64,000 nt of DNA. It comes from Candidatus Yanofskybacteria bacterium (GTDB taxonomy: Bacteria; Patescibacteriota; Minisyncoccia; 2-02-FULL-40-12; GWA2-44-9). The notes beneath the pieces were generated by a model. The model was not told the DNA's origin. It made no database searches and saw nothing but the letters and a program-made list of their open reading frames with translations. Where the stretch lies: assembly GCA_020852375.1 (NCBI GenBank), contig JADZAY010000005.1, positions 19,814 to 83,813 on the forward strand. Reading direction: 5' to 3'. Both the position numbers and the translations under genes were made by a program. Below, in pieces: positions 3,970 to 51,697 of the stretch (its first letter is position 1; each line of letters starts with the position of its first letter).

Positions 3970-4060
3970 GGCGCCCTCTGGGGCGCCTTTCTTTTTTGGT
4001 ATCCGTCCAAAAGCGTCCCAAGCCAGTCGGCGAGGGATTACCGCGAATCGTTCGATGGGG
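3970..4060 (+). repeat. 91-bp intergenic direct repeat, copy 1 (terminator + conserved structured segment)
   Basis: 89/91 identical to 4522-4612. Confidence 0.95.
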
Positions 4061-4521: not shown

Positions 4522-4612
4522 GGCGCCCTCCGGGGCGCCTTTCTCTTTTGGTATCCGTCCAAAAGCGTCCCAAGCCAGTCGGCGAGGGATTACCGCGAAT
4601 CGTTCGATGGGG
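4522..4612 (+). repeat. 91-bp intergenic direct repeat, copy 2
   Basis: 89/91 identical to 3970-4060. Confidence 0.95.
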
Positions 4613-41651: not shown

Positions 41652-41771
41652 TGAGCGGGGTACGGGAATCGCCTTCGGTCTGCGCCACTCCGTCGAGCGT
41701 CGCAGCCTCGGGGCCGGGCCTCGCGGCAGTGACCGCTATCACTGCATCGCTCCGGCCGTTCGATTCCCGTA
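41652..41771 (-). repeat. tRNA-Gly-linked structured element (20-bp copy of the tRNA 3' end + core + inverted T-arm copy)
   Basis: 41652-41671 is identical to 41821-41840; GTTCGATTCCCGTA at 41758-41771 in the opposite orientation. Confidence 0.85.
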
Positions 41772-41822
41772 TAGCACTGTTCGATACTAAAACAGCGCCC
41801 ACAGGGGCGCAATTTTAGTATG

Positions 41823-41893
41823 AGCGGGGTACGGGAATCGAACCCGTGCGTCGACCTTGGAAGGGTCGCGTCATACCATTAGACCAACCCCGC
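41823..41893 (-). tRNA. tRNA-Gly(TCC)
   Basis: Acceptor GCGGGGT/ACCCCGC; anticodon arm CGACC-CTTCCAA-GGTCG; GTTCGATTC. Confidence 0.95.
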
Positions 41894-42023
41894 GGCAAAA
41901 ATTATTGTAGCTCAGAATCGTCTAAGCGGCAATGCCGCAACGATTCTGCCCGTTTTGAATTCACCTCAATGAATTCAAAACGAAAAACGCCCCGCTTCTC
42001 GGGTGAGAGGCGGGGCGGGCGTG

Positions 42024-44432
42024 CTACTTTCCGTTCAGCTCGGGATACCGTCGTGCCCGGTAGGCATCGATCCGCGCTTCGATGCGCTGCGGGAACTTGG
42101 GTGGATCGCCGAGCACTCCGGCAGGTCCGTACAGCGCGAGCATGATCTCGCGTGCGACGGGGAGCGCAACGCTTCCGCCGGTCGCACGATTCGCGAGCGG
42201 TGCTCCGAAGTCGTCATATCCGACCCAGATACCGATGGTGACGCCATCGGGACCGTAGGTTGAGCAGATGAACCACGCATCGCGGAAGCTGTTCGATGTT
42301 CCCGTCTTTCCCATCACCTGGATGGGGAAGTTGCTGGTGTCGAGACTGCGTGCGGTGCCACTTGGCAGCCGTACTGTCCCTCGCAGGAGCTCCTGAACGA
42401 GATCCAGTTTTTCCGGAGGGATGGGGAACGGTTTGTCAGTGGCGGAAGCGCGATACAGCGGCGCGCCGTTCGCGTCGGTGACCGCACCGACGATGTGGGG
42501 CGAAGCGACGGTCCCGCTCGCGAGCGAGCGGTACGCGTTCGTCATCTCGAGGAGCGTGACGCTGCTGGCACCGAGCGCCGTCGAGATGTAGGGGTCGAGC
42601 TCGCTCTGGATGCCCAGCGTATGAGCCCAGGTGATGAGTGGTTCCGGCCCGCCGAGTTCGTCGCGGACCAAGCGCAGGATGGGGACATTGCGCGACTGAG
42701 CGATGGCTTCCCGGAGCGGAATGATGCCGAGATATCTCCCGTCATAATTCTTCACCGGCTTTTGCCAGCCGCCCATATTCACACTGATGGGTGTATCGGT
42801 GACGAGGTCGTCCGGGGTTTTCCCGCTCATGACCGCTGCCGCGGCGACGATGCCCTTCATGGTCGAACCGGGCTGCCGCTTGGCATGGATGGCACGGTTG
42901 TAGAGCGTGTAGTTGTGAAGCCGCTCGTCGTAGATGCCGCCGAACTCCGCCAAGATGTCGGCGTTCCGATTGCCGAGCACGACGACCGCGATCTGCGGAT
43001 GTGTTCCGTCGCGGGTGCCGTACTGGTTCACGTAGCCGGGCATGGTGGGAGAGTCGGTGCCGTAGATGCCATCGAGCGCTGCCGCGTTCACGATCGCCTG
43101 GATGTGGCGGTCGGCGGTCAGATGTACACGCACGCGTCCGGCGAGTAGGTCGCTGCGGGAGTACCCGAGGCTGTCCATCTCTTCCAGAGCGGTCGACACG
43201 ACCGCCGGCTCATCCGTTTTTGTCTTCAGTCGGGGAGTCTGCAGAATGAGCGGACGCGTCTTCAGCATGGTGAGACGCGAAGCATCCAGAAAGCCATTCT
43301 CGGCCATGCGGTCGAGTACGGCATTCCGCCGAGCGACCTGCTCGGCGCGGATCGACGGATCGTCGTCCAGCTGTGCGAACTGACCGGGCGCCGGAATGAT
43401 GCTGGCCAGGAACGCTGCCTCGTCCGGTGTGAGCGCTTCCATGTCTTTCCCGAAGTAGAAGCGAGCGCCGTAGGAGACGCCGTACACGCCGTGTCCCAGA
43501 TACACCAGGTTGGCGTACGACCCGAGGATGTACTCCTTGGCTTTCGTGCGCCCATCATACTGACCGAGCACGCCGTACCATAGCATTTCGCGGAACGTGT
43601 GGGACGGCGGGCGCGTCTCGATGAAGTGCTGGGTGAGCCCTCGCTCGAGGCGGACGGCGTACTTGATCTCGCGGACCTTGCGCGTCGCGTTATTGGTCCA
43701 CACCGTCCCCTTGAAGAGACGGATGACGCGCGTCACGATGTTGTCCACGAGCAGCTCATTTCCGCTCTGGCGGAGCAGCCAGTCTTCAAGGTAGATGTTC
43801 CGGGCGACCTGTTGCGTGATCGTGCTTGCGCCCTGCTGACGAAAGTTGAGAACGCTCCGGGTAGCGGCTTTGAACGCCGCGCGCGTGGTCGCTCGCCAGT
43901 CCCAGCCGTCGTGGCTCCAAAAACGCTTGTCCTCCGCGGACACGAGCGCTTGGCGAACGACTTCGGGAACCTGTTCCGATCCGATATTCTCGCGATAGGC
44001 GGTGGCAAGACGGATCGTGACCAGACCGTTTCGATCTAGGACATATCCGATCTGCGCCGGACGCCATTCGAGGAGTGTGCGGGGGTCGGGAGTGTCGCTG
44101 CCGTCGATGTAGATGTACCACGTCGGGTATGCGGCAACGGCGAGTACGAGCACTGCCGACTGAACGGTCCAGCGAACGTACCGATGTGCACGGAGGAAGG
44201 CCCGCGCGAGATCGAAGATATCCCGCAGAGCATGCCCGGCCGTGCGGACCGGTCCCAATCGGGGGTCTGCCCATTCGATGAACGGTACGGCGATGCGATC
44301 GCCGAACTTCCCGAGCAGCCATCCGATACTCGCCATGACCGCTGCGGTGCCGAGGGGCAGGAGTAGTCCTGCCCCTGCGGCGGCGATCACAACGATCACG
44401 ACCTTGAGGAGGACTTCAAGCGCCTCGAGCAT
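42024..44432 (-). CDS. Class A penicillin-binding protein (transglycosylase/transpeptidase)
   Basis: EDKRFWSH.G, GASTITQQVAR, RKVRE, STMK, SRN, KTGT. Confidence 0.93.
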   Translation of the reverse strand: MLEALEVLLKVVIVVIAAAGAGLLLPLGTAAVMASIGWLLGKFGDRIAVPFIEWADPRLGPVRTAGHALRDIFDLARAFLRAHRYVRWTVQSAVLVLAVAAYPTWYIYIDGSDTPDPRTLLEWRPAQIGYVLDRNGLVTIRLATAYRENIGSEQVPEVVRQALVSAEDKRFWSHDGWDWRATTRAAFKAATRSVLNFRQQGASTITQQVARNIYLEDWLLRQSGNELLVDNIVTRVIRLFKGTVWTNNATRKVREIKYAVRLERGLTQHFIETRPPSHTFREMLWYGVLGQYDGRTKAKEYILGSYANLVYLGHGVYGVSYGARFYFGKDMEALTPDEAAFLASIIPAPGQFAQLDDDPSIRAEQVARRNAVLDRMAENGFLDASRLTMLKTRPLILQTPRLKTKTDEPAVVSTALEEMDSLGYSRSDLLAGRVRVHLTADRHIQAIVNAAALDGIYGTDSPTMPGYVNQYGTRDGTHPQIAVVVLGNRNADILAEFGGIYDERLHNYTLYNRAIHAKRQPGSTMKGIVAAAAVMSGKTPDDLVTDTPISVNMGGWQKPVKNYDGRYLGIIPLREAIAQSRNVPILRLVRDELGGPEPLITWAHTLGIQSELDPYISTALGASSVTLLEMTNAYRSLASGTVASPHIVGAVTDANGAPLYRASATDKPFPIPPEKLDLVQELLRGTVRLPSGTARSLDTSNFPIQVMGKTGTSNSFRDAWFICSTYGPDGVTIGIWVGYDDFGAPLANRATGGSVALPVAREIMLALYGPAGVLGDPPKFPQRIEARIDAYRARRYPELNGK

Positions 44433-44500
44433 GGTTTCACCTCTTGTAAACGAACTAAACGAACGCGGTGGTTATACCACGTTTTTCCTATGGCAACAAT

Positions 44501-44651
44501 CTCCACTCCCGCTCCCCTCGGCACCCCGACTCGGACGGTTTCTCGGCGCTCCCGGTCCGGAGCGCCTCATCCCTCACGCTCCCGCTCGGCAGTGACTCTG
44601 CCTCCCGGTCCGCGAAGCCTCGCTGGGGTGCCGAGGCGTTCAGTCGTGGAG
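44501..44651 (-). repeat. Structured palindromic element A (core related to 60451-60592)
   Basis: Stem cctcggcacccc/ggggtgccgagg; minus-strand core GCTTCG..GAGGC..CTGCCGAG..hairpin..GTCCG. Confidence 0.65.
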
Positions 44652-44658
44652 GAAAGCA

Positions 44659-44814
44659 CTCCCGTGCCCGGCATGTCCCCTGAGGACCGTCACGAATGCC
44701 GGAGCACGGACCCGTCAAGGGTCACTCCTTGACGGGTCCGGCACCGAGTGCAGAGCGAAGCCGCCGCGCAGGGGCGGCAAGCGTGTCCGAGGGGGATGTG
44801 TCGGGCGAGGGAGG
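44659..44814 (+). repeat. Structured palindromic element C (core related to the tRNA-linked elements)
   Basis: Long terminal stem; CGAATGCCGGAGCA; 13-bp perfect hairpin ggacccgtcaagg/ccttgacgggtcc; ends GTCCG. Confidence 0.65.
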
Positions 44815-44821
44815 GGGAAGA

Positions 44822-44935
44822 GTCGGGCCGCCGAGAATCGGCCTCGTCTCTCGTGTTGCCGTCGCGACACTTGGACTAGCCACCGCCTCGCGGCTGCGCC
44901 AGCTGACGCAGCATTGCTCCGGCGTTCGATTCTCG
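44822..44935 (-). repeat. tRNA-Pro-linked structured element
   Basis: 44822-44840 duplicates the outer tRNA-Pro 3' end (44993-45011); inverted GTTCGATTCTCG at 44924-44935. Confidence 0.85.
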
Positions 44936-44990
44936 TCAGCTGAATCATTCGCGCAAAAGCAGGACCAGCAGTGGTCCCGTTTTTGTATGA

Positions 44991-45198
44991 TGGTCGGGCC
45001 GCCGAGAATCGAACTCGGTCTCCGTCGCCACAGCGCCTGGGAATGCGAACTCAACGCATTCCCGCTCAATCCCAATGTCGGGGTGCCCAGAATCGAACTG
45101 GGTCTACCTGTACCCAAAACAGGCGTACTACCGGTATACGACACCCCGACATTGTTATTGAGCCCCACACACGTGTACTACCGGTATACTACGGCCCG
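44991..45198 (-). tRNA. Interrupted tRNA-Pro(GGG)-like gene with an insert of about 133 nt after the anticodon that contains a second tRNA
   Basis: Acceptor CGGGCCG/CGGCCCG + A + encoded CCA; intact D and T arms; GGG at 45166-45164; anticodon stem imperfect. Confidence 0.65.
45078..45148 (-). tRNA. tRNA-Pro(TGG), nested in the gene above
   Basis: Acceptor CGGGGTG/CACCCCG; CCTGT-TTTGGGT-ACAGG; CCCAG-TTCGATT-CTGGG. Confidence 0.93.
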
Positions 45199-45267
45199 TG
45201 AAGCAGTGGCATCATACCAGAATCTCCGTGCGTTGGCGAGGGGCATAAAGTATGGTAAAATATATCC

Positions 45268-45339
45268 GGCCTCATAGTTCAATGGATAGAACAGGAGACT
45301 TCTAAGCTCTTGATCCAGGTTCGATTCCTGGTGAGGCCA
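45268..45339 (+). tRNA. tRNA-Arg(TCT)
   Basis: Acceptor GGCCTCA/TGAGGCC; loop CTTCTAA; GGTTCGATTCC. Confidence 0.92.
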
Positions 45340-45353
45340 CTGAGGAAAAGCGC

Positions 45354-46271
45354 ATGATCTCATACTGGAAACGGACAACTGAATCGGGGGCCACGGGGCA
45401 GGTGGTGGGACCGGCGACGGACACCTGGGCGTATGTGACCGACCCGACGGATGCGGAGTTGGATGCGCTCGTCGCCGACGGTGTGCTTGAGCGCGACCTC
45501 CTCCAGGATGCCATCGATCCGAACGAGGTGCCGCGCGTTCAGCATGAGCGGGGAGTCACCTATTTTTTCTTGCGCGCGCCGAGTGGACAGGCGGAAGGCA
45601 CACAAACTGTTCCGCTGCTGATCGCGCTCGCCCCAACATTTCTTTTGACGGTATCCCGTGCCCCGTTCACGTGGCTCGAGCGATTCCGTGGCGAGGAGAC
45701 CTACTCGACCGCGTGGCGCAGTCAGCTGGTGTGGCGCATATTCTTGGCGCTTGCCGGTCGCTATCAAACCACGGTGACCGATATCGCGCGACGTGTGCGG
45801 AGCAATGTCGGGGTCAGCCAGTCCATTCACAATGAAGATATCTTCCGCCTCGTCGCATACGAAGGAGTATTGAACGACATGCTCGCTGCGCTGGTCCCGA
45901 CGAGCGCCATTTTGGCCGGGGTTGCGACCGGAAAACACATGAAGATCTACGAAGAAGATAAAGATCTTATGGAAGACGTCGTTCTCAGTGTCGGGCAGGT
46001 CATTGAGGCGGCGAAAGCGCAACTCAAAACGACCGTGAACTACCGAGAGGCGTATTCGGTGATCGCTACGAACAACCTGAACCGGATCATCAAATTCCTG
46101 ACCTTGGTGACGGTCGTACTCACGGTGCCGATGGTGGTCTCGGGGCTCTATGGCATGAATGTCCGATTGCCGCTCGGCGACCATCCCTACGCGTTCGGAT
46201 TTATTGTGACGGGTACGATCGCGGTGGTCATCGGACTGCTCCGTGTGCTATCGGCAAAGCGCCTCCTATGA
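45354..46271 (+). CDS. corA: CorA-family Mg2+ transporter
   Basis: GLYGMNV signature; two C-terminal TM. Confidence 0.93.
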   Translation: MISYWKRTTESGATGQVVGPATDTWAYVTDPTDAELDALVADGVLERDLLQDAIDPNEVPRVQHERGVTYFFLRAPSGQAEGTQTVPLLIALAPTFLLTVSRAPFTWLERFRGEETYSTAWRSQLVWRIFLALAGRYQTTVTDIARRVRSNVGVSQSIHNEDIFRLVAYEGVLNDMLAALVPTSAILAGVATGKHMKIYEEDKDLMEDVVLSVGQVIEAAKAQLKTTVNYREAYSVIATNNLNRIIKFLTLVTVVLTVPMVVSGLYGMNVRLPLGDHPYAFGFIVTGTIAVVIGLLRVLSAKRLL

Positions 46272-48244
46272 CCTCATTCCTTCCTTCGTGGACAACCGGA
46301 CCAGCCACTGCGGTCGACGCCGCAATCACTGATGCGCTCGCGCGGAAGCGTGCGATGCTCGACGCGATCAGTGCGGTTCCCGATGACGCTCGTACATTCC
46401 GCAACACGATCGCGGCCCTCGAGTATGCGAACGACGAGCTGAACGATACCACGCAGTGGTGCGATCTTCTTGCGAGCGTACATCCCGACGCAGATCTCCG
46501 GAAAACATACCAACGCGCCGGCGAGCGCGCCTCCGAGGAGTCGATCGAAATGGATGCAGATCCGCGTCTGTGGAGTGCGGTTTGTGCGTGGCGGCAGCGC
46601 GGCGAAGCGCTTGAGCCGGCCGATCAAAAACTCGCCGATGATACGATCCGCGCGATGCGGCGCACGGGGTTCGAGCTCCCCCCCGAAGCGTTCCAGCACT
46701 TGAAGCGGAATCGGATTGAGTTGGCGAATCTCGAGCAAGCGTTCGAGCTGGCGATCAATGACTGGGAGGATGGCATCGAGGTGGCCCATGAGCAACTTGC
46801 TGGGTTGCCCCAGCGCTACATCAATGGTCTTATGCGGACCGATGACGGACGATACCGGATCACCTTGGCGTATCCGGACCTTCTGCCGTTTATGCGCCAC
46901 GCACACGACGATGCTGTTCGCCGCGAGCTGGCTCGCAAGAACTTGCAGAAAGGCGGGAAGGAGAACCTTGAACGACTTGCGCGGATGATCGCTCTCCGAC
47001 AAGAGAATGCGCGCCTGCTCGGGTACGCATCGCATGCCGATTACCAGGCGGAGATCCGTATGGCGAAAACCGGGCGAGCCATTGATGAATTCCTGCGCGA
47101 TCTGATCGTGAAACTCAGGCCAGAAGCCCAGAAGGAGCTGCGCGATTGTATCGCCCTCAAACGGCGCGTGCTTCAACTGGAGAAGCCGGCGCCGATCCAT
47201 TTTCATGAACTTTCCTACTGGAGCGAGCGGCTGCTCCATGAGCGGCATGCGATCGACAGCGAACAGGTGAAGGAATATTTCCCGCTTTCTCGCGTCCTCG
47301 ACGGCATGCTCGGTATCTTTCAGGAATTGCTGGGACTTTCGTTCGTGAAAGTTTCCGATGCTACTCTCTGGCATTCCGATGTCGAGCTGTACGAGGTACG
47401 GCAGGGCGATGTGATACGTGGACGCTTCGCATTGGATCTGTACCCGCGGGCGGGGAAGTACGGACATGCCGCGTCATTTTCGCCGGTGCTTGGGAGGGTA
47501 AGCGAATCAGGCGAGGCGATCCCGGGCTTTTTTGCCCTGGTTTGCAACTTTGCGCGTCCGACCGCCGAACATCCATCACTGCTTACGCATGATGAGGTGG
47601 AGACGCTATTCCATGAATTCGGGCACGTTGTCCACGGAATCGTTTCCGGAGGGCGATGGCAAGCACAGAACGGGCTCTACACCGCATTTGATTTTGTGGA
47701 AGCCCCCAGCCAGATCATGGAGGAGTGGCCGTGGCATCCGGCGGTGTTGGCTCGCATCAGCGGTCATGTATCGAGCGGCGAACCGATCCCTGCCGACATG
47801 CGCGAGCGTATGCTTGCCGCACGCCACCATCTGCGCGCCATCAGCTACCTGACCCAGGCAGTGCACGCATTCTACGATCTTTCCATTCACGCACGACCGA
47901 CCGACGCGCCGGTTGATGCTCCGACGCTGGCGCAAGCCTATCGCGATATGAAGCTGGAGTATGAATCGTTCGATCTCCCGGAAGATTCTCTGTTTCCTGC
48001 CGGGTGGGGTCATATGGCGGACTACGATGCCGGGTACTACGGGTACCTGTGGAGCAAGGTGTATGCGCTCGACCTCTACAGCCGTTTTGCGAATGATCCG
48101 TTCGACGCAACGGTGGGGTCCGCGTATCGCGATCGGGTGCTCGCTCCCGGAGCTTCGATCGACGAGCGTGACGGGGTCGTCGCATTCCTTGGACGCGAAC
48201 CGTCGCATGCGGCATTTTTGGAAATGCTTGGTATACTCACCTGA
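46268..48244 (+). CDS. M3A metallopeptidase (thimet oligopeptidase/oligopeptidase A-like)
   Basis: LFHEFGH, DFVEAPSQ, YYGYLWS. Confidence 0.95.
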   Translation: MTSFLPSWTTGPATAVDAAITDALARKRAMLDAISAVPDDARTFRNTIAALEYANDELNDTTQWCDLLASVHPDADLRKTYQRAGERASEESIEMDADPRLWSAVCAWRQRGEALEPADQKLADDTIRAMRRTGFELPPEAFQHLKRNRIELANLEQAFELAINDWEDGIEVAHEQLAGLPQRYINGLMRTDDGRYRITLAYPDLLPFMRHAHDDAVRRELARKNLQKGGKENLERLARMIALRQENARLLGYASHADYQAEIRMAKTGRAIDEFLRDLIVKLRPEAQKELRDCIALKRRVLQLEKPAPIHFHELSYWSERLLHERHAIDSEQVKEYFPLSRVLDGMLGIFQELLGLSFVKVSDATLWHSDVELYEVRQGDVIRGRFALDLYPRAGKYGHAASFSPVLGRVSESGEAIPGFFALVCNFARPTAEHPSLLTHDEVETLFHEFGHVVHGIVSGGRWQAQNGLYTAFDFVEAPSQIMEEWPWHPAVLARISGHVSSGEPIPADMRERMLAARHHLRAISYLTQAVHAFYDLSIHARPTDAPVDAPTLAQAYRDMKLEYESFDLPEDSLFPAGWGHMADYDAGYYGYLWSKVYALDLYSRFANDPFDATVGSAYRDRVLAPGASIDERDGVVAFLGREPSHAAFLEMLGILT

Positions 48245-48249
48245 TCACT

Positions 48250-49101
48250 ATGTATCTCGTCGGCAACGCACCATTTCCCGATTTCGAACTCATCGACTCC
48301 GGCGAAGGCTATCGCCTGGAGCGGTGGGGCACCTATACGCTCGCGCGCCCCGATCCCCAGACGATCTGGAAGCGGAGTGCGGATGAAGCCGAGTGGCAAC
48401 GGGCGAACGCCATCTTTCGCGGCGACCAGTGGGAGATGCGCGGCGAAATGCCAGAACACTGGGATATGTCATTTGGCGACATGAAGCTGCGCGTCCGCCC
48501 GATGAACTTCAAGCATACGGGCGTATTCCCGGAGCAAGCGGAAAACTGGAAATGGATGGAAGCACGACTCAGCGGGCTCACGCGGCCGAATGTGATGAAC
48601 CTGTTCGCTTATACCGGCGCCGCGAGCGTATGGCTGACGCGCCGCGGTGCGTTCGTGACTCATGTCGACGCTTCACGCCCCGCGATCGGGTGGGCGAAAG
48701 ATAATCAGGAGCTCAACGGCCTCGCACCGGATTCGATTCGGTGGATGCTCGAAGACGCCGCGGTATTTGCTAAGAAGGAGGCGAAGCGGGGAGCTCAGTA
48801 CGAGGGAATCGTGATGGACCCGCCCGCGTTCGGTCACGGCCCCACCGGGAAGGTGTGGAAGTTCAATGAGCATATGCCCGCCCTCATTCGCGACTGCGTC
48901 GCGCTCCTTTCGCCAGACGCTCGGTTCCTGCTCATCAATGCCTACGCGACGAACACCTCCGAGCTTGCACTCAAGAACCTTCTCGAAGACGCCATCGGCG
49001 ACCGCGGCGGAACCATCGAGGCGGGGCAGCTGTGTCTTCAGCAGCGCAACGGACGACTCCTCTCAACGGGCATCTTTGCCCGGTGGTCACGCTCGGAGTA
49101 G
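48250..49101 (+). CDS. Class I SAM-dependent methyltransferase (RlmI/YwbD-like)
   Basis: FKHTGVFPEQ, NLFAYTG, DPPAFG. Confidence 0.9.
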   Translation: MYLVGNAPFPDFELIDSGEGYRLERWGTYTLARPDPQTIWKRSADEAEWQRANAIFRGDQWEMRGEMPEHWDMSFGDMKLRVRPMNFKHTGVFPEQAENWKWMEARLSGLTRPNVMNLFAYTGAASVWLTRRGAFVTHVDASRPAIGWAKDNQELNGLAPDSIRWMLEDAAVFAKKEAKRGAQYEGIVMDPPAFGHGPTGKVWKFNEHMPALIRDCVALLSPDARFLLINAYATNTSELALKNLLEDAIGDRGGTIEAGQLCLQQRNGRLLSTGIFARWSRSE

Positions 49102-49284
49102 CCTGGACGAAAGGCTATTCATATTGTATTGTATCCCCACGCCCGCACACTGTGTGCGGAAGCGTGTGTGCCCTAATCCGGCATGCGTTGTTTGAAAACC
49201 CCTGGCAGCCGTCGGGAGCATCTACTCGGCCGCTGTCACCCGCTTCGCTCGTGTCGCACGGACGGAGCCGGAAAGGAAATTGCG

Positions 49285-50157
49285 ATGATTGGCTTTGGTG
49301 GTACCGTCGGACCTAGCCCTAAAGACGTCAAACCGATTCGTCTCCACTGGGCAGTCATACTCATGGCGTCCGTCTGCGGTGGACTCCTCTTTGCAGTCCA
49401 CAAGAGTGCGCTAAACGACAACGAGAAGTTCTTCCTGGGATTGCTCGGGGGTGCTGCTCTTGTGTTCTGCATCCTTGTGCTCGGCGGCCCAAAGAAGCTC
49501 TTCATGGACTGGTTCGATCGCAACTTCTGGGGCTACTACTGGGTGTTGCGGAGAACGGGGCAGAACGCGCTGACGGGTGAGTTCGTAAACGACCGTCACC
49601 TGAATCTGTTCACGCGTGATGAGTGGACACTCCACATTCCCGTTGGCGGCTGGTTCAACCGCCCGTTCTTCCGCCATGACGGGAGTAGTTCTTCCTCCTC
49701 CTTTCGTATCACCCGTGTTCGCTGGGATTCCGTGGGACAGGTGGAGAGCATCACGGTGCAGGATCGCATGGGTAATCGCTTGACCCATCATCCTGCTTGG
49801 TTTCTCGAGCGGCTTTCCGGGCTTCTTCGCACCGATTTTTCCATCGGCACCTACGATTCGGTGAGCCGGCTCGCGATGGTGGACGCGAACCGCTTGATGA
49901 GTGAAAAGAGGGCGGTTGCGGAAGAGCTCGATGCGGTGAAGGCGAAGTGGAAGTGCGTGAGCGACGTGGTCTGCGCCCAGATCCGTGTCATGGAGGGATG
50001 GCTACATGTCATCGACTCGGGTACGCGACTCCGCACGACACGGGAGGGCAGTAAGATGCGACACCTCATCGGTTATGAGGTGTCGTTCATCAAGCACTCC
50101 ACCGCGCAGGCGCTCCATCCCGAGAGTCTGACGAAGCACGAGAATTCTGCTGCCTGA
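49285..50157 (+). CDS. Hypothetical 2-TM membrane protein
   Basis: SD AAAGGA; long leader; terminator at 50164-50194. Confidence 0.65.
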   Translation: MIGFGGTVGPSPKDVKPIRLHWAVILMASVCGGLLFAVHKSALNDNEKFFLGLLGGAALVFCILVLGGPKKLFMDWFDRNFWGYYWVLRRTGQNALTGEFVNDRHLNLFTRDEWTLHIPVGGWFNRPFFRHDGSSSSSSFRITRVRWDSVGQVESITVQDRMGNRLTHHPAWFLERLSGLLRTDFSIGTYDSVSRLAMVDANRLMSEKRAVAEELDAVKAKWKCVSDVVCAQIRVMEGWLHVIDSGTRLRTTREGSKMRHLIGYEVSFIKHSTAQALHPESLTKHENSAA

Positions 50158-50207
50158 CCATCACCCCCGCCTTGCAAAGGGCGGGGGTCTTTTTATACTG
50201 AGGGGGT

Positions 50208-50330
50208 ATGAAGAAATCGTTCCTCATCCTGCTCGGGATCGCGATCGCGCTTGCGCTCGCATTTGTCTACTCTCGCCCCGCGGCGCATGCGCCGACCGGC
50301 GAGTCGCCGACTCCCACGGCGGCGCGCTAG
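50208..50330 (+). CDS. 40-aa single-TM peptide (not in ORF track)
   Basis: MKKSFLILLGIAIALALAFVYSRPAAHAPT...; TATACT upstream; ends 4 nt before pyrD. Confidence 0.6.
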   Translation: MKKSFLILLGIAIALALAFVYSRPAAHAPTGESPTPTAAR

Positions 50331-50334
50331 CGGT

Positions 50335-51459
50335 ATGCGCGATCCCTTTTCCACGCGCCTGATCGAGGCGTTCTACCGGCGTGCGGCAAAGCCGCTGCTG
50401 TTCCGAGCAGATCCTGAACGGGTGCACGACCGTTTTACGGCGATCGGGAGGGTGCTTGCTTCCATAGAGCTGACGCGGCGTGCGACGCGGGCGCTCTTCC
50501 GTTTCGATGATCCGGTGCTCGAGACCGTCGTTGCCGGCATCCGCTTTGCAAATCCCGTCGGGCTCGCCGCGGGATTCGATAAGAACGCCCAGCTGTGGAA
50601 TATTCTCCCGGATGTCGGATTCGGGTTCGCCGAGTTCGGGAGTATTACCGGAAGGCCGTGTGCGGGAAATCCGAAACCACGGTTGTGGCGTATGCCCGAG
50701 CACGAAGCATTGCAGGTGTACTACGGCCTCAAGAACGACGGCGCAGCAGTGATCGCCGCGCGGCTTCATGGAGTACATCCCCGCATGCCGATCGGTGTGA
50801 GCGCCGCAAAAACGAACAGTCCGGAGACTGCGGAGCCGGATGCGGCGATTGCCGACTATCGCGCAGTGCTCGACGCGTTTCGGGATATCGCTGACTACTA
50901 CACTGTGAACATTAGTTGTCCGAATGCGTACGGCGGTCAGCCGTTCACCGATCCGGCGTTATTGGATCGGCTCATGTCAGCTGTTGATACGGGGTCGTAT
51001 CTGCAGCCGATCTTTGTAAAGCTCTCGCCCGATCTCGATGATGCTCAGCAGGATGCCATTCTCGAAGTGCTCGACGGGCACCGGGTGCACGGAATCGTGT
51101 GCACGAACCTCACGAAGGATCCCCGCAGTGCCGGAATCGCGCCCGAACGGGTTCCCGGGCGGGGAGGAATCTCTGGACGAGCGGTGCAGGCGGCGTCCGA
51201 GCACCAGCTCTCACGGATATGGCAGCGCACGCACGGGAAGTATGTGCTTGTCGGCGTTGGCGGCGTGTTTACCGCCGAAGATGCGTACCGAAAGATCCGT
51301 CTGGGCGCATCGCTGGTTCAGCTTATTACGGGTATGGTCTATCGCGGTCCACAGGTGATCGGGCAGATCAACCGGGGACTCGCAGCGCTTCTCCGTCGGG
51401 ACGGGTTTTCGAGCATTACCGAGGCAGTGGGGGTGGGGGTAGGAGAGAAGGGGAGTTGA
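50335..51459 (+). CDS. pyrD: Quinone-dependent dihydroorotate dehydrogenase (class 2)
   Basis: DPERVH, NPVGLAAGFDKN, GNPKPRL, NISCPN, VKLSPD, GVGGV. Confidence 0.95.
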   Translation: MRDPFSTRLIEAFYRRAAKPLLFRADPERVHDRFTAIGRVLASIELTRRATRALFRFDDPVLETVVAGIRFANPVGLAAGFDKNAQLWNILPDVGFGFAEFGSITGRPCAGNPKPRLWRMPEHEALQVYYGLKNDGAAVIAARLHGVHPRMPIGVSAAKTNSPETAEPDAAIADYRAVLDAFRDIADYYTVNISCPNAYGGQPFTDPALLDRLMSAVDTGSYLQPIFVKLSPDLDDAQQDAILEVLDGHRVHGIVCTNLTKDPRSAGIAPERVPGRGGISGRAVQAASEHQLSRIWQRTHGKYVLVGVGGVFTAEDAYRKIRLGASLVQLITGMVYRGPQVIGQINRGLAALLRRDGFSSITEAVGVGVGEKGS

Positions 51460-51573
51460 GCGGGTATCGCCCTCATGTCGGAGCGAGTCCGTCGACTCAC
51501 TCCGCACTCGGGACCCCGCCTCCGGGCGACGCCTGCAGGCGTCGCTTCCGTCCGGCGGATCGATGCCCGCTCA
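51450..51573 (-). repeat. tRNA-His-linked structured element
   Basis: Diverged 3'-end copy at 51450-51469 (AGCGGGTATCG identical); inverted GGATCGATGCCCGCT at 51557-51571; terminator at 51584-51622. Confidence 0.75.
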
Positions 51574-51625
51574 TGACCTCACGATACAGAAGCGCCCCCA
51601 GCAGGTGGGGGCGCTTCTGTATATG

Positions 51626-51697
51626 GGGACCTAGCGGGTATCGATCCCGCGACCGCGCTTCCACAGAGCGCTGTGATACCATTTCACCATAGGTCCC
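51626..51697 (-). tRNA. tRNA-His(GTG)
   Basis: G-1:C73; GGACCTA/TAGGTCC; GCGCT-CTGTGGA-AGCGC; atypical T-loop ATCGATA. Confidence 0.9.

What the first reader, a model, noticed from the sequence alone, without database searches (positions are those of the whole stretch)
41652..51622. tRNA-tailored structured elements: one conserved core, ends copied from each host tRNA
Seen behind tRNA-Gly, tRNA-Pro and tRNA-His, in tRNA sense: tRNA, terminator, antisense copy of that tRNA's T-loop/T-stem, then a shared core (GCCGGA..., hairpin, GAGGC, hairpin with a GACG loop), then a direct copy of the tRNA 3' end. The closing stem differs at each locus and tracks the host, even the unusual A54 of tRNA-His (GGATCGAT). 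No integrase is nearby. Inference: a non-autonomous element or RNA whose ends are templated from the target tRNA; it could be a minimal integrative element, an att-site decoy or a tRNA processing/antisense module.
Basis: partly seen in the sequence, partly recalled or inferred. Interest (0 to 1): 0.8.

Follow-up and report, generated by a model that had tools for sequence, protein, structure and literature searches.

The report
Mini-elements re-tailored to each tRNA
Behind about half of this tiny-celled (Patescibacteria) bacterium's tRNA genes sits a gene-less, tightly folded unit of about 170 bases whose two ends copy the tail of whichever tRNA it follows, and it is likely a small mobile element that rewrites its own targeting sequence from each new site.

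Summary
The three elements are real. They belong to a gene-less family with a 106-nt three-way-junction fold: 19 model hits in this genome, found in 46 of 61 order-level genomes, no Rfam match. Each unit is tRNA, cap hairpin, antisense copy of positions 53-65, conserved core, direct copy of 56-73. Both ends track the host tRNA.

The antisense arm follows the tRNA itself: 9 of 9 elements with a variant arm sat behind rare C55 tRNAs, a position the direct copy lacks. Cores cluster by genome, not by tRNA type. Near-identical cores sit at different tRNAs, relatives have empty sites, and unlike units stack in tandem.

Correction: the 'Pro' unit matches an older, split tRNA-Pro gene, not the intact one.

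No dedicated enzyme was found. Y1, IS110 and Cas1 were not found here; serine recombinases and RTs do not co-vary with copy number. Small GIY-YIG nucleases at tRNA ends are only a weak candidate.

Best reading: a non-autonomous T-loop insertion element with a host-written guide; the mechanism is inferred. This scan noted the family before on other DNA. I found no paper on it in 10 searches.

The parts
41822..41893 (-). tRNA-Gly(TCC), host of unit 1
   Evidence: ARAGORN, Rfam tRNA
41784..41821 (-). cap hairpin (terminator-like) of the Gly unit
   Evidence: sequence; terminator scan hit on both strands
41758..41771 (-). antisense arm, exact reverse complement of host positions 53-66
   Evidence: 14-nt exact match
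41672..41757 (-). conserved core (P2 with GGA/GA internal loop, junction, P3 with GACG loop)
   Evidence: model R1 77.4 bits
41652..41671 (-). direct copy of host 3' end from C56, 20 nt
45169..45198 (-). 5' piece of the older tRNA-Pro(TGG) gene
   Evidence: identical to the first 30 nt of the intact orthologue in G003
45077..45148 (-). second, intact tRNA-Pro(TGG) allele nested in the anticodon loop of the older gene; not the host of the unit
44991..45025 (-). 3' piece (with CCA) of the older tRNA-Pro gene; true host of unit 2
   Evidence: matches the G003 tRNA-Pro 3' half and the unit's direct copy
44945..44990 (-). cap hairpin of the Pro unit; absent from the empty site in relatives
44924..44936 (-). 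antisense arm of the Pro unit
44841..44923 (-). conserved core of the Pro unit
   Evidence: R1 104.9 bits (training member)
44822..44840 (-). direct copy of the older tRNA-Pro 3' end, 19 nt
   Evidence: (family D6)
51625..51696 (-). tRNA-His(GTG) with unusual A54, host of unit 3
   Evidence: identical in G003
51584..51622 (-). cap hairpin of the His unit
   Evidence: sequence; not listed by the terminator scan
51558..51570 (-). antisense arm mirroring A54 (12 of 13 match to host 53-65)
51470..51557 (-). core of the His unit; 90% identical to the core behind tRNA-Trp in G001
   Evidence: R1 67.9 bits
51450..51469 (-). direct copy, exact for 11 nt then decayed; overlaps the DHODH stop codon on the + strand

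Best explanation
These are copies of a gene-less unit of about 170 bp that sits at the T-loop of tRNA and tmRNA genes, has both ends matched to the host tRNA, and is likely a non-autonomous mobile element that would insert through a folded single strand, using its antisense arm as a guide rewritten from each new target. SHOWN: the fixed anatomy; covarying fold on the tRNA-sense strand; host tracking of both ends, including positions 54-55 that only the tRNA can partner; cores that change tRNA while the ends change with them; empty, filled, decayed and stacked sites. INFERRED: (1) in single-stranded form the arm pairs with host positions 53-65 and lines the T-loop (55/56 or 56/57) up with the core end, like a splint; (2) a nuclease supplied in trans, perhaps a small Slx1-like GIY-YIG protein, would nick there; (3) fill-in or template switching would duplicate 56-73, which leaves the tRNA intact, and would correct the arm to the new host; (4) the cap hairpin likely stops transcription before the arm, which would otherwise unfold the tRNA's T-arm; (5) loss likely occurs by deletion of the folded part.
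For: Covariation score 0.526 versus 0.155 shuffled; 26 of 40 pairs show two-sided changes; 24 sequences. Antisense arm 4.04 of 5 variable sites versus 1.97 shuffled, direct copy 10.05 of 12 versus 4.70, n=141. Replicated on new metagenome copies: 3.73 versus 1.83 (n=70) and 10.1 versus 5.0 (n=35 of 70 parsed). All 5 hosts with an odd T-loop are mirrored. Prospective scan: 9 of 9 true elements with the variant arm follow C55 tRNAs, base rate 4 of 141; 7 were new and 1 of 10 hits was a chance coding match. Core tree (108 tips): genome labels 74 changes versus 87.9+-2.1 shuffled, tRNA labels 90 versus 91.7+-1.8. In 26 pairs with cores 87% or more identical on different hosts, the arms differ at 58 of 67 host-different sites versus 21 of 115 host-same sites. 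Pro site empty, without cap, in 5 of 5 genus relatives. Unlike units stacked at 174-175 bp. G.T 164 versus A.C 66 and G.A 445 versus T.C 15 in core stems.
Against: No enzyme found. The genome has no Y1 transposase, IS110 or Cas1 hit. A GIY-YIG gene lies within 700 bp upstream or 500 bp downstream of only 4 of 190 elements, and 0 of 80 loci of one tRNA-linked GIY-YIG clade hold a full core. No copy in 51 viral loci, in phages or in plasmids. No excised or joined form of a unit in contigs of 4 runs from one study, though contigs drop rare variants. The G003 His site looks like a deletion scar rather than a pre-insertion site, so only Pro is a clean gain in the window. Both arms follow their hosts exactly at only 38 of 67 sites, and 29 of 130 arms keep a G.A/A.G mismatch at 57/58, so copying is not exact. 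Whether the working form is DNA or RNA is not settled.
Confidence: 0.55

Rival explanations
1. Old resident repeats with no dedicated enzyme. Cores are swapped between filled sites by gene conversion or DNA uptake, and ends are kept matched by ordinary replication template switching in the tRNA-arm quasi-palindrome and between the direct repeats.
For: Caps of near-identical cores are no more alike than background (0.29-0.67 versus 0.49+-0.07). 71 of 108 nearest neighbours lie in another genome and at another tRNA. Orthologous T-stem changes are mirrored in both ends. No enzyme co-varies.
Against: It does not explain the clean gain of cap, core and ends at Pro, stacks of unlike units each with its own cap, or why a fixed-length core with invariant unpaired motifs is kept.
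Confidence: 0.17
2. A cis-acting RNA module. Read-through of the cap makes a trailer whose arm sequesters the T-arm and so tunes or degrades the pre-tRNA, or the core is a small RNA bound by a protein.
For: The fold is on the tRNA-sense strand. The arm is predicted to collapse the T-arm from 0.78 to 0.11. The Tyr unit lies inside a Thr-Tyr-Thr cluster.
Against: Presence is patchy at orthologous tRNAs. Truncated and decayed copies are common. 15 of 61 order-level genomes gave no hit. GNA triloops in caps (14 of 31 loops matched on the sense strand, 1 of 20 on the other) suit DNA better than RNA (recalled thermodynamics).
Confidence: 0.14
3. A decoy or spare landing site that draws other tRNA-targeting elements away from the real gene.
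For: A second repeat family sits on the 3' ends of 2 direct copies as well as 2 real tRNAs in this genome.
Against: The copy lacks positions 53-55. Serine-recombinase islands insert at the real tRNA and push the unit aside. A decoy does not need an antisense arm.
Confidence: 0.07
4. Ordinary attR scars or shrunken remnants of integrase-bearing islands.
For: A direct repeat of the tRNA 3' end starting in the T-loop is the classic island signature (established knowledge). Some units lie at the far end of islands.
Against: One covarying core is shared across 40 host types (39 tRNA anticodon types and tmRNA). A scar has no host-matched antisense arm. G026, G033 and G057 have 10-13 units and no serine recombinase hit.
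Confidence: 0.05

Closest known systems
Integrative elements and gene-less derivatives at tRNA/tmRNA 3' ends (tyrosine integrase, T-loop sites; recalled)
   Same: Direct repeat of the tRNA 3' end starting in the T-loop, intact tRNA, tandem stacking, tmRNA also used.
   Different: No integrase. One core serves about 40 host types. The repeat starts at 56/57, not across the whole loop. There is a host-matched antisense arm.
REP/REPIN with RAYT and TIRYT Y1 transposases (PMC3733652, passages read)
   Same: Small intergenic hairpin repeats, no gene, likely single-strand fold, variable copy number.
   Different: No Y1 transposase in this genome or in 10 of 11 genus members. The target is strictly tRNA T-loops and the ends are host-specific.
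Bacterial MITEs (PMC3184786, passages read)
   Same: Under 200 bp, gene-less, folds into a stable structure, flanked by a direct repeat, empty sites in relatives.
   Different: The apparent terminal inverted repeats are copies of the target and differ at every site, rather than being conserved transposase-binding ends.
Casposons (PMC5137440, abstract and passages read)
   Same: Target at a tRNA 3' end that includes the T-loop segment; insertion makes a 15-bp target duplication.
   Different: No Cas1 in 5 element-rich genomes, no conserved terminal repeats, and the duplication here covers 56-73.
IS110 bridge-RNA recombinases (PMC11208160, search listing only; mechanism recalled)
   Same: A structured nucleic acid carrying target-matching segments in a conserved scaffold.
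   Different: No IS110 transposase. The sense and antisense segments overlap on the target and pair with each other, and appear to be rewritten from the target.
E. coli tyrT 178-bp tRNA-linked repeat / RtT RNA (recalled; search did not retrieve it)
   Same: About 170-180-bp units ending in a tRNA 3' end, in tandem behind a tRNA gene.
   Different: No Rfam match in the window, and this family spans all tRNA types with an antisense arm.

Membership tests
tRNA-integrating elements (tyrosine integrase) | Direct repeat of the tRNA 3' end flanking the element | tested here: met
tRNA-integrating elements (tyrosine integrase) | Cognate integrase in the element or genome | tested here: not met
   One PF00589 hit in the genome, a 314-aa protein that looks like a housekeeping Xer (my reading), away from the window
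tRNA-integrating elements (tyrosine integrase) | Excised circle | tested here: inconclusive
   No such joint in contigs of 4 runs; contigs drop rare forms
Large serine recombinase islands | Recombinase gene and a short crossover near the tRNA end | tested here: not met
   Recombinase hit in 38 of 61 genomes but not in G026, G033, G057; such islands displace the unit
REP/REPIN-RAYT, IS200/IS605 | Y1 HUH transposase flanked by the repeat | tested here: not met
   0 in G000; 1 of 11 genus members; no R1 hit in 12 Y1 loci
MITE | Conserved terminal inverted repeats shared by all copies | tested here: not met
   Closing stem varies with host
MITE | Empty orthologous sites | tested here: met
Casposon | Cas1 casposase | tested here: not met
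   0 of 5 genomes, control rang in 7 of 14
IS110/IS1111 bridge or seek RNA | IS110 transposase | tested here: not met
   0 in G000, control rang in 6 of 14; relatives not searched
IS91-like rolling-circle elements | Y2 transposase; insertion next to a GTTC-type tetranucleotide (recalled) | tested here: inconclusive
   The junction lies at the T-loop GTTC; PF04986 gave 0 but its control was silent
Retroelements | Linked reverse transcriptase | tested here: not met
   4 RT genes in G000; two sit beside an Avd-like ORF and a template-repeat-like stretch and look DGR-type (my reading). G001, G003, G032, G033 have 8-15 units and no RT hit
Known Rfam RNA families | Match to a covariance model | tested here: not met
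Functional RNA | Expression as a discrete RNA | not testable with these tools
   No RNA holder listed

The most novel reading that the evidence does not exclude
A self-programming, protein-less insertion element. Its 13-nt arm is a guide that base-pairs with the T-arm of any tRNA or tmRNA gene, splints the T-loop to the element end, and is rewritten from each new target, with a small host-encoded nuclease doing the cutting in trans. This would be a new class of nucleic-acid-guided site-specific integration.
Probability: 0.3. Interest if true: 0.9.

Novelty: categorically new. Interest (0 to 1): 0.72.

Why it matters
Known tRNA-targeting elements carry an enzyme and one fixed attachment site. 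This family carries neither, yet it occupies about 40 host types across Patescibacteria and keeps a sense and an antisense copy of each host's T-arm, down to single unusual T-loop bases. If the arm is a guide that is rewritten from the target, it is a natural retargeting mechanism at universal safe sites. That matters for mobile-element biology and possibly for genetic tools in these minimal genomes. Even on the conservative reading it is a large, uncatalogued structured-repeat family in genomes thought to have little non-coding structure. It also shows that their tRNA loops are contested by several kinds of element.

Tried and rejected
Rfam scan: nothing beyond the tRNAs.

Loose DNA patterns over public genomes gave mostly chance hits: 28 of 120 true; one search was likewise mostly chance. 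Viral collections gave 0 of 11 and 0 of 40 loci with the model. Phages and plasmids gave no match.

Enzyme hunt. Y1 transposase, IS110 and Cas1 were not found; the Y2 search was uninformative because its control was silent. RT and serine recombinase do not follow copy number. GIY-YIG is in 61 of 61 genomes and so cannot discriminate. One tmRNA-linked GIY-YIG cassette abuts the 3' half of a core in two related genomes (L453 = L470, and L475), but 0 of 80 loci of that clade hold a full core. Clustering of neighbouring ORFs found no recurring partner gene beyond 4 GIY-YIG loci.

Serine-recombinase attP reading of the unit: rejected, because the core end has no shifted T-loop motif. Integron attC reading: rejected, because the GTT/AAC polarity is reversed (recalled consensus). 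Direct copy as a sponge for the arm: not supported at equilibrium. Wobble test in the arm was weak: G.T 36 of 723 versus A.C 28 of 779.

No RNA holder listed; this is not evidence either way. The phylum-wide search (7 of 151) scored only 26 candidates per genome and is a lower bound.

Ten literature searches found no description. The library lacks most subscription papers and I read no supplements.
Full report
OBSERVATION. The window holds four tRNA genes. Behind Gly(TCC), a Pro gene and His, on the minus strand, the sequence reads tRNA, long hairpin, short spacer, reverse complement of tRNA positions 53-65, a core of 83-88 nt, and a direct copy starting at C56. The three folds beat dinucleotide shuffles as RNA (z -5.1, -2.9, -8.1). 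As DNA, Gly and His do and Pro does not (z -4.3, -1.2, -6.3). Rfam has no match beyond the tRNAs. One correction: the Pro unit matches the 3' piece of an older tRNA-Pro gene at 44991-45025. That gene is intact in relative G003 but is split here by a second tRNA-Pro allele nested in its anticodon loop.

THE FAMILY. The genome has 743,932 bases and is scored 100% complete. A profile found cores 66-72 nt behind the annotated end of most host tRNAs. I aligned 24 equal-length copies and named a three-way-junction structure: 88.6% of cells pair, 26 of 40 pairs have two-sided changes, and the covariation score is 0.526 against 0.155 in shuffles, while slid controls pair at 31-41%. Related sequences can inflate the shuffle control, but the slid control keeps relatedness. 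Unpaired motifs (GGA/GA loop, GGTG junction, GACG loop) are near invariant. The model gives 3 hits in the window and 19 in the genome (150 of 798 candidates scored). With two truncated copies and one with another core seen by eye, 22 of 47 tRNA and tmRNA loci carry a unit. It hits 46 of 61 order-level genomes and 7 of 151 in a shallow phylum sample. Among named records with true copies in the first 80 loci, 15 of 18 are titled Patescibacteria and 3 'Gammaproteobacteria'; I did not test whether those titles are right. Of 190 distinct copies, 151 have an annotated tRNA or tmRNA within 450 nt upstream, spanning 40 host types. The other 39 mostly follow intron-split tRNAs, tmRNA, contig ends or island junctions.

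THE ENDS FOLLOW THE HOST. In 141 copies with a parsed host, the antisense arm matches 4.04 of 5 variable sites (shuffled 1.97, maximum 2.26) and the direct copy 10.05 of 12 (shuffled 4.70). An independent metagenome set gave 86 new copies, 70 with a tRNA within 100 nt: 3.73 against 1.83, and for the 35 whose copy parsed 10.1 against 5.0. Where host and copy differ, the arm follows the host 35 times, the copy 10 and neither 6; the new set gave 11, 2 and 5. All five hosts with odd T-loops (four C55, one A54) are mirrored at positions the copy does not contain. I then predicted that units with the variant arm would sit behind C55 tRNAs. All 9 true elements did, 7 of them new, against a base rate of 4 of 141; 1 of 10 hits was a chance coding match. 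The signal fades past position 65 but stays above shuffles at 66-73 (2.84 against 2.29 of 8). The direct repeat usually ends within 3 nt past position 73 (62 of 88 copies).

WHICH FOLD. In core stems G.T outnumbers A.C 164 to 66 and G.A outnumbers T.C 445 to 15, so the tRNA-sense strand is the one that folds. In 70 of 99 eligible whole loci folded, the arm pairs with the tRNA's T-arm with mean probability 0.75 and with the copy 0.08; the T-arm falls from 0.78 to 0.11 (nearest-neighbour model, no modified bases or tertiary contacts). In context the arm can hold positions 53-55 of the tRNA and 56-65 of either copy, which is the geometry of a splint (inference; likeness to group I intron P1/P10 recalled). 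It also means read-through RNA would misfold the tRNA, which may be why a hairpin nearly always lies between.

THE CORES MOVE. On a tree of 108 cores, genome labels cluster (74 changes against 87.9+-2.1) and tRNA labels do not (90 against 91.7+-1.8). Cores 95-98% identical sit at fMet and Ser, Ser and Arg, Val and Gln; the window's His core is 90% identical to a Trp core in G001. In 26 such pairs the arms differ at 58 of 67 sites where the hosts differ, both matching their host at 38, and at 21 of 115 where they do not. Caps are no more alike than background. The Pro site has neither unit nor cap in 5 of 5 genus relatives, and G003 has the same T-arm, so the unit was most likely gained here, already tailored. 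The His site lacks this core in 5 of 5 relatives examined. G003 has the same A54 tRNA, a cap and an 8-nt remnant of the copy, which looks like a loss. G011 has an unrelated core with a perfect 19-nt antisense arm. G007 has a unit of this family at His. Unlike units with their own caps stack at 174-175 bp (G033 Trp, G001 Asn), and near-identical tandem units also occur.

THE ENZYME IS NOT FOUND. The genome has one tyrosine recombinase, one large serine recombinase on a 7-kb island in tRNA-Asn, four RTs, two of which look DGR-type, and no Y1 transposase, IS110 or Cas1 hit. Serine recombinases (38 of 61 genomes), Y1 (26 of 61) and RTs (45 of 61) are missing from several element-rich genomes. Three of five GIY-YIG hits here lie just 5' of tRNA genes, two with a duplicated tRNA 5' piece and a hairpin; one resembles UPF0213 proteins and Slx1. 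A related clade has a tRNA or tmRNA within 800 bp in 46 of 80 loci and its own hairpin repeats, but no full core, and only 4 of 190 units have a GIY-YIG gene close by. It is therefore a candidate by neighbourhood only. No copy was found in viral, phage or plasmid collections. No RNA run was listed. Contigs of four runs of one study showed no joint that skips a unit.

COMPARISON. It works like a gene-less tRNA-integrating element, but it fails the defining tests of tyrosine-integrase islands, serine-recombinase islands, REP/RAYT (PMC3733652, passages), MITEs (PMC3184786, passages), casposons (PMC5137440, abstract and passages) and IS110 (PMC11208160, listing only). Ten searches found no description. 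Most subscription papers are not in the library and I saw no supplements, which could hold repeat or RNA catalogues. Earlier notes of this scan describe the same family in this genome and in others. I read them after the main analysis; they agree but are not independent support.

VERDICT. The feature is real, widespread and apparently undescribed. Host-written ends and movement of cores are well supported. The guided single-strand insertion mechanism is my best inference (0.55), with enzyme-free conversion (0.17) and a cis-acting RNA (0.14) as the main rivals. Interest 0.72.

Noticed in passing
window 44991-45198 (-): An older tRNA-Pro(TGG) gene, intact in G003, is split at the anticodon loop by an insert holding a complete second tRNA-Pro(TGG) allele between inverted arms plus a side hairpin. 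It looks like a tRNA replacement cassette.
   Followed up: partly
window 44501-44821: A roughly 320-bp GC-rich, highly folded repeat directly after the Pro unit's direct copy. It has many copies up to 96-99% identical elsewhere, often at contig ends, and is likely a recently active element.
   Followed up: partly
G000 C8:26113-26322, C5:12794-12991, C9:58622-58834: Small GIY-YIG genes just 5' of tRNA-Cys, -Gln and -Ile. Two are preceded by a duplicated 5' piece of the tRNA and a hairpin, mirroring the 3' elements.
   Followed up: partly
L453, L470-L549: A GIY-YIG clade preceded by REP-like hairpins that begin right at tRNA or tmRNA 3' ends; 46 of 80 loci have such a gene within 800 bp.
   Followed up: partly
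G000 C6:45804, C9:55054, C9:57980, C9:58310: A second gene-less repeat resembling the ends of that GIY-YIG cassette sits on the 3' ends of tRNA-Thr(GGT) and tRNA-Leu(GAG), and on the direct copies of the Val(TAC) and Ile(TAT) units.
   Followed up: partly
L154 (G000 C19:9100-17000), L182, L303, L307, L311, L369: Units displaced from their tRNA by inserted DNA; L154 and L182 hold a large serine recombinase. The far junctions usually carry the T-loop hexamer about 5 bp further from the tRNA-end remnant than in the tRNA, like the attP/attB offset of zinc-ribbon recombinases (offset recalled).
   Followed up: partly
L568 (G011 tRNA-His); G000 C9 tRNA-Arg(GCG) and the first tRNA-Phe unit: Other cores, unrelated or distant, with the same tailored architecture. 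The G011 one has a perfect 19-nt antisense arm.
   Followed up: no
G000 C9:55630-55910: tRNA-Phe missed by ARAGORN because of an insert of about 200 nt in the anticodon loop, likely an intron.
   Followed up: no
G000 C21:4384, C3:10745, C8:1011, C8:46086: Four reverse transcriptase genes in a 744-kb genome; two have an Avd-like ORF and a template-repeat-like stretch beside them.
   Followed up: no
L325 (G003 tRNA-Asp) versus G000 C8:67548-67925: A flank that lies upstream of tRNA-Asp in G003 aligns to the downstream side in G000, hinting that the gene is flipped.
   Followed up: no
G000 C6:29584 versus L020 (G003): tRNA-Val(CAC) at the same locus differs strongly in sequence between these close relatives.
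   Followed up: no
window 3970-4060 and 4522-4612: A 91-nt direct repeat, 98% identical, 552 bp apart.
   Followed up: no
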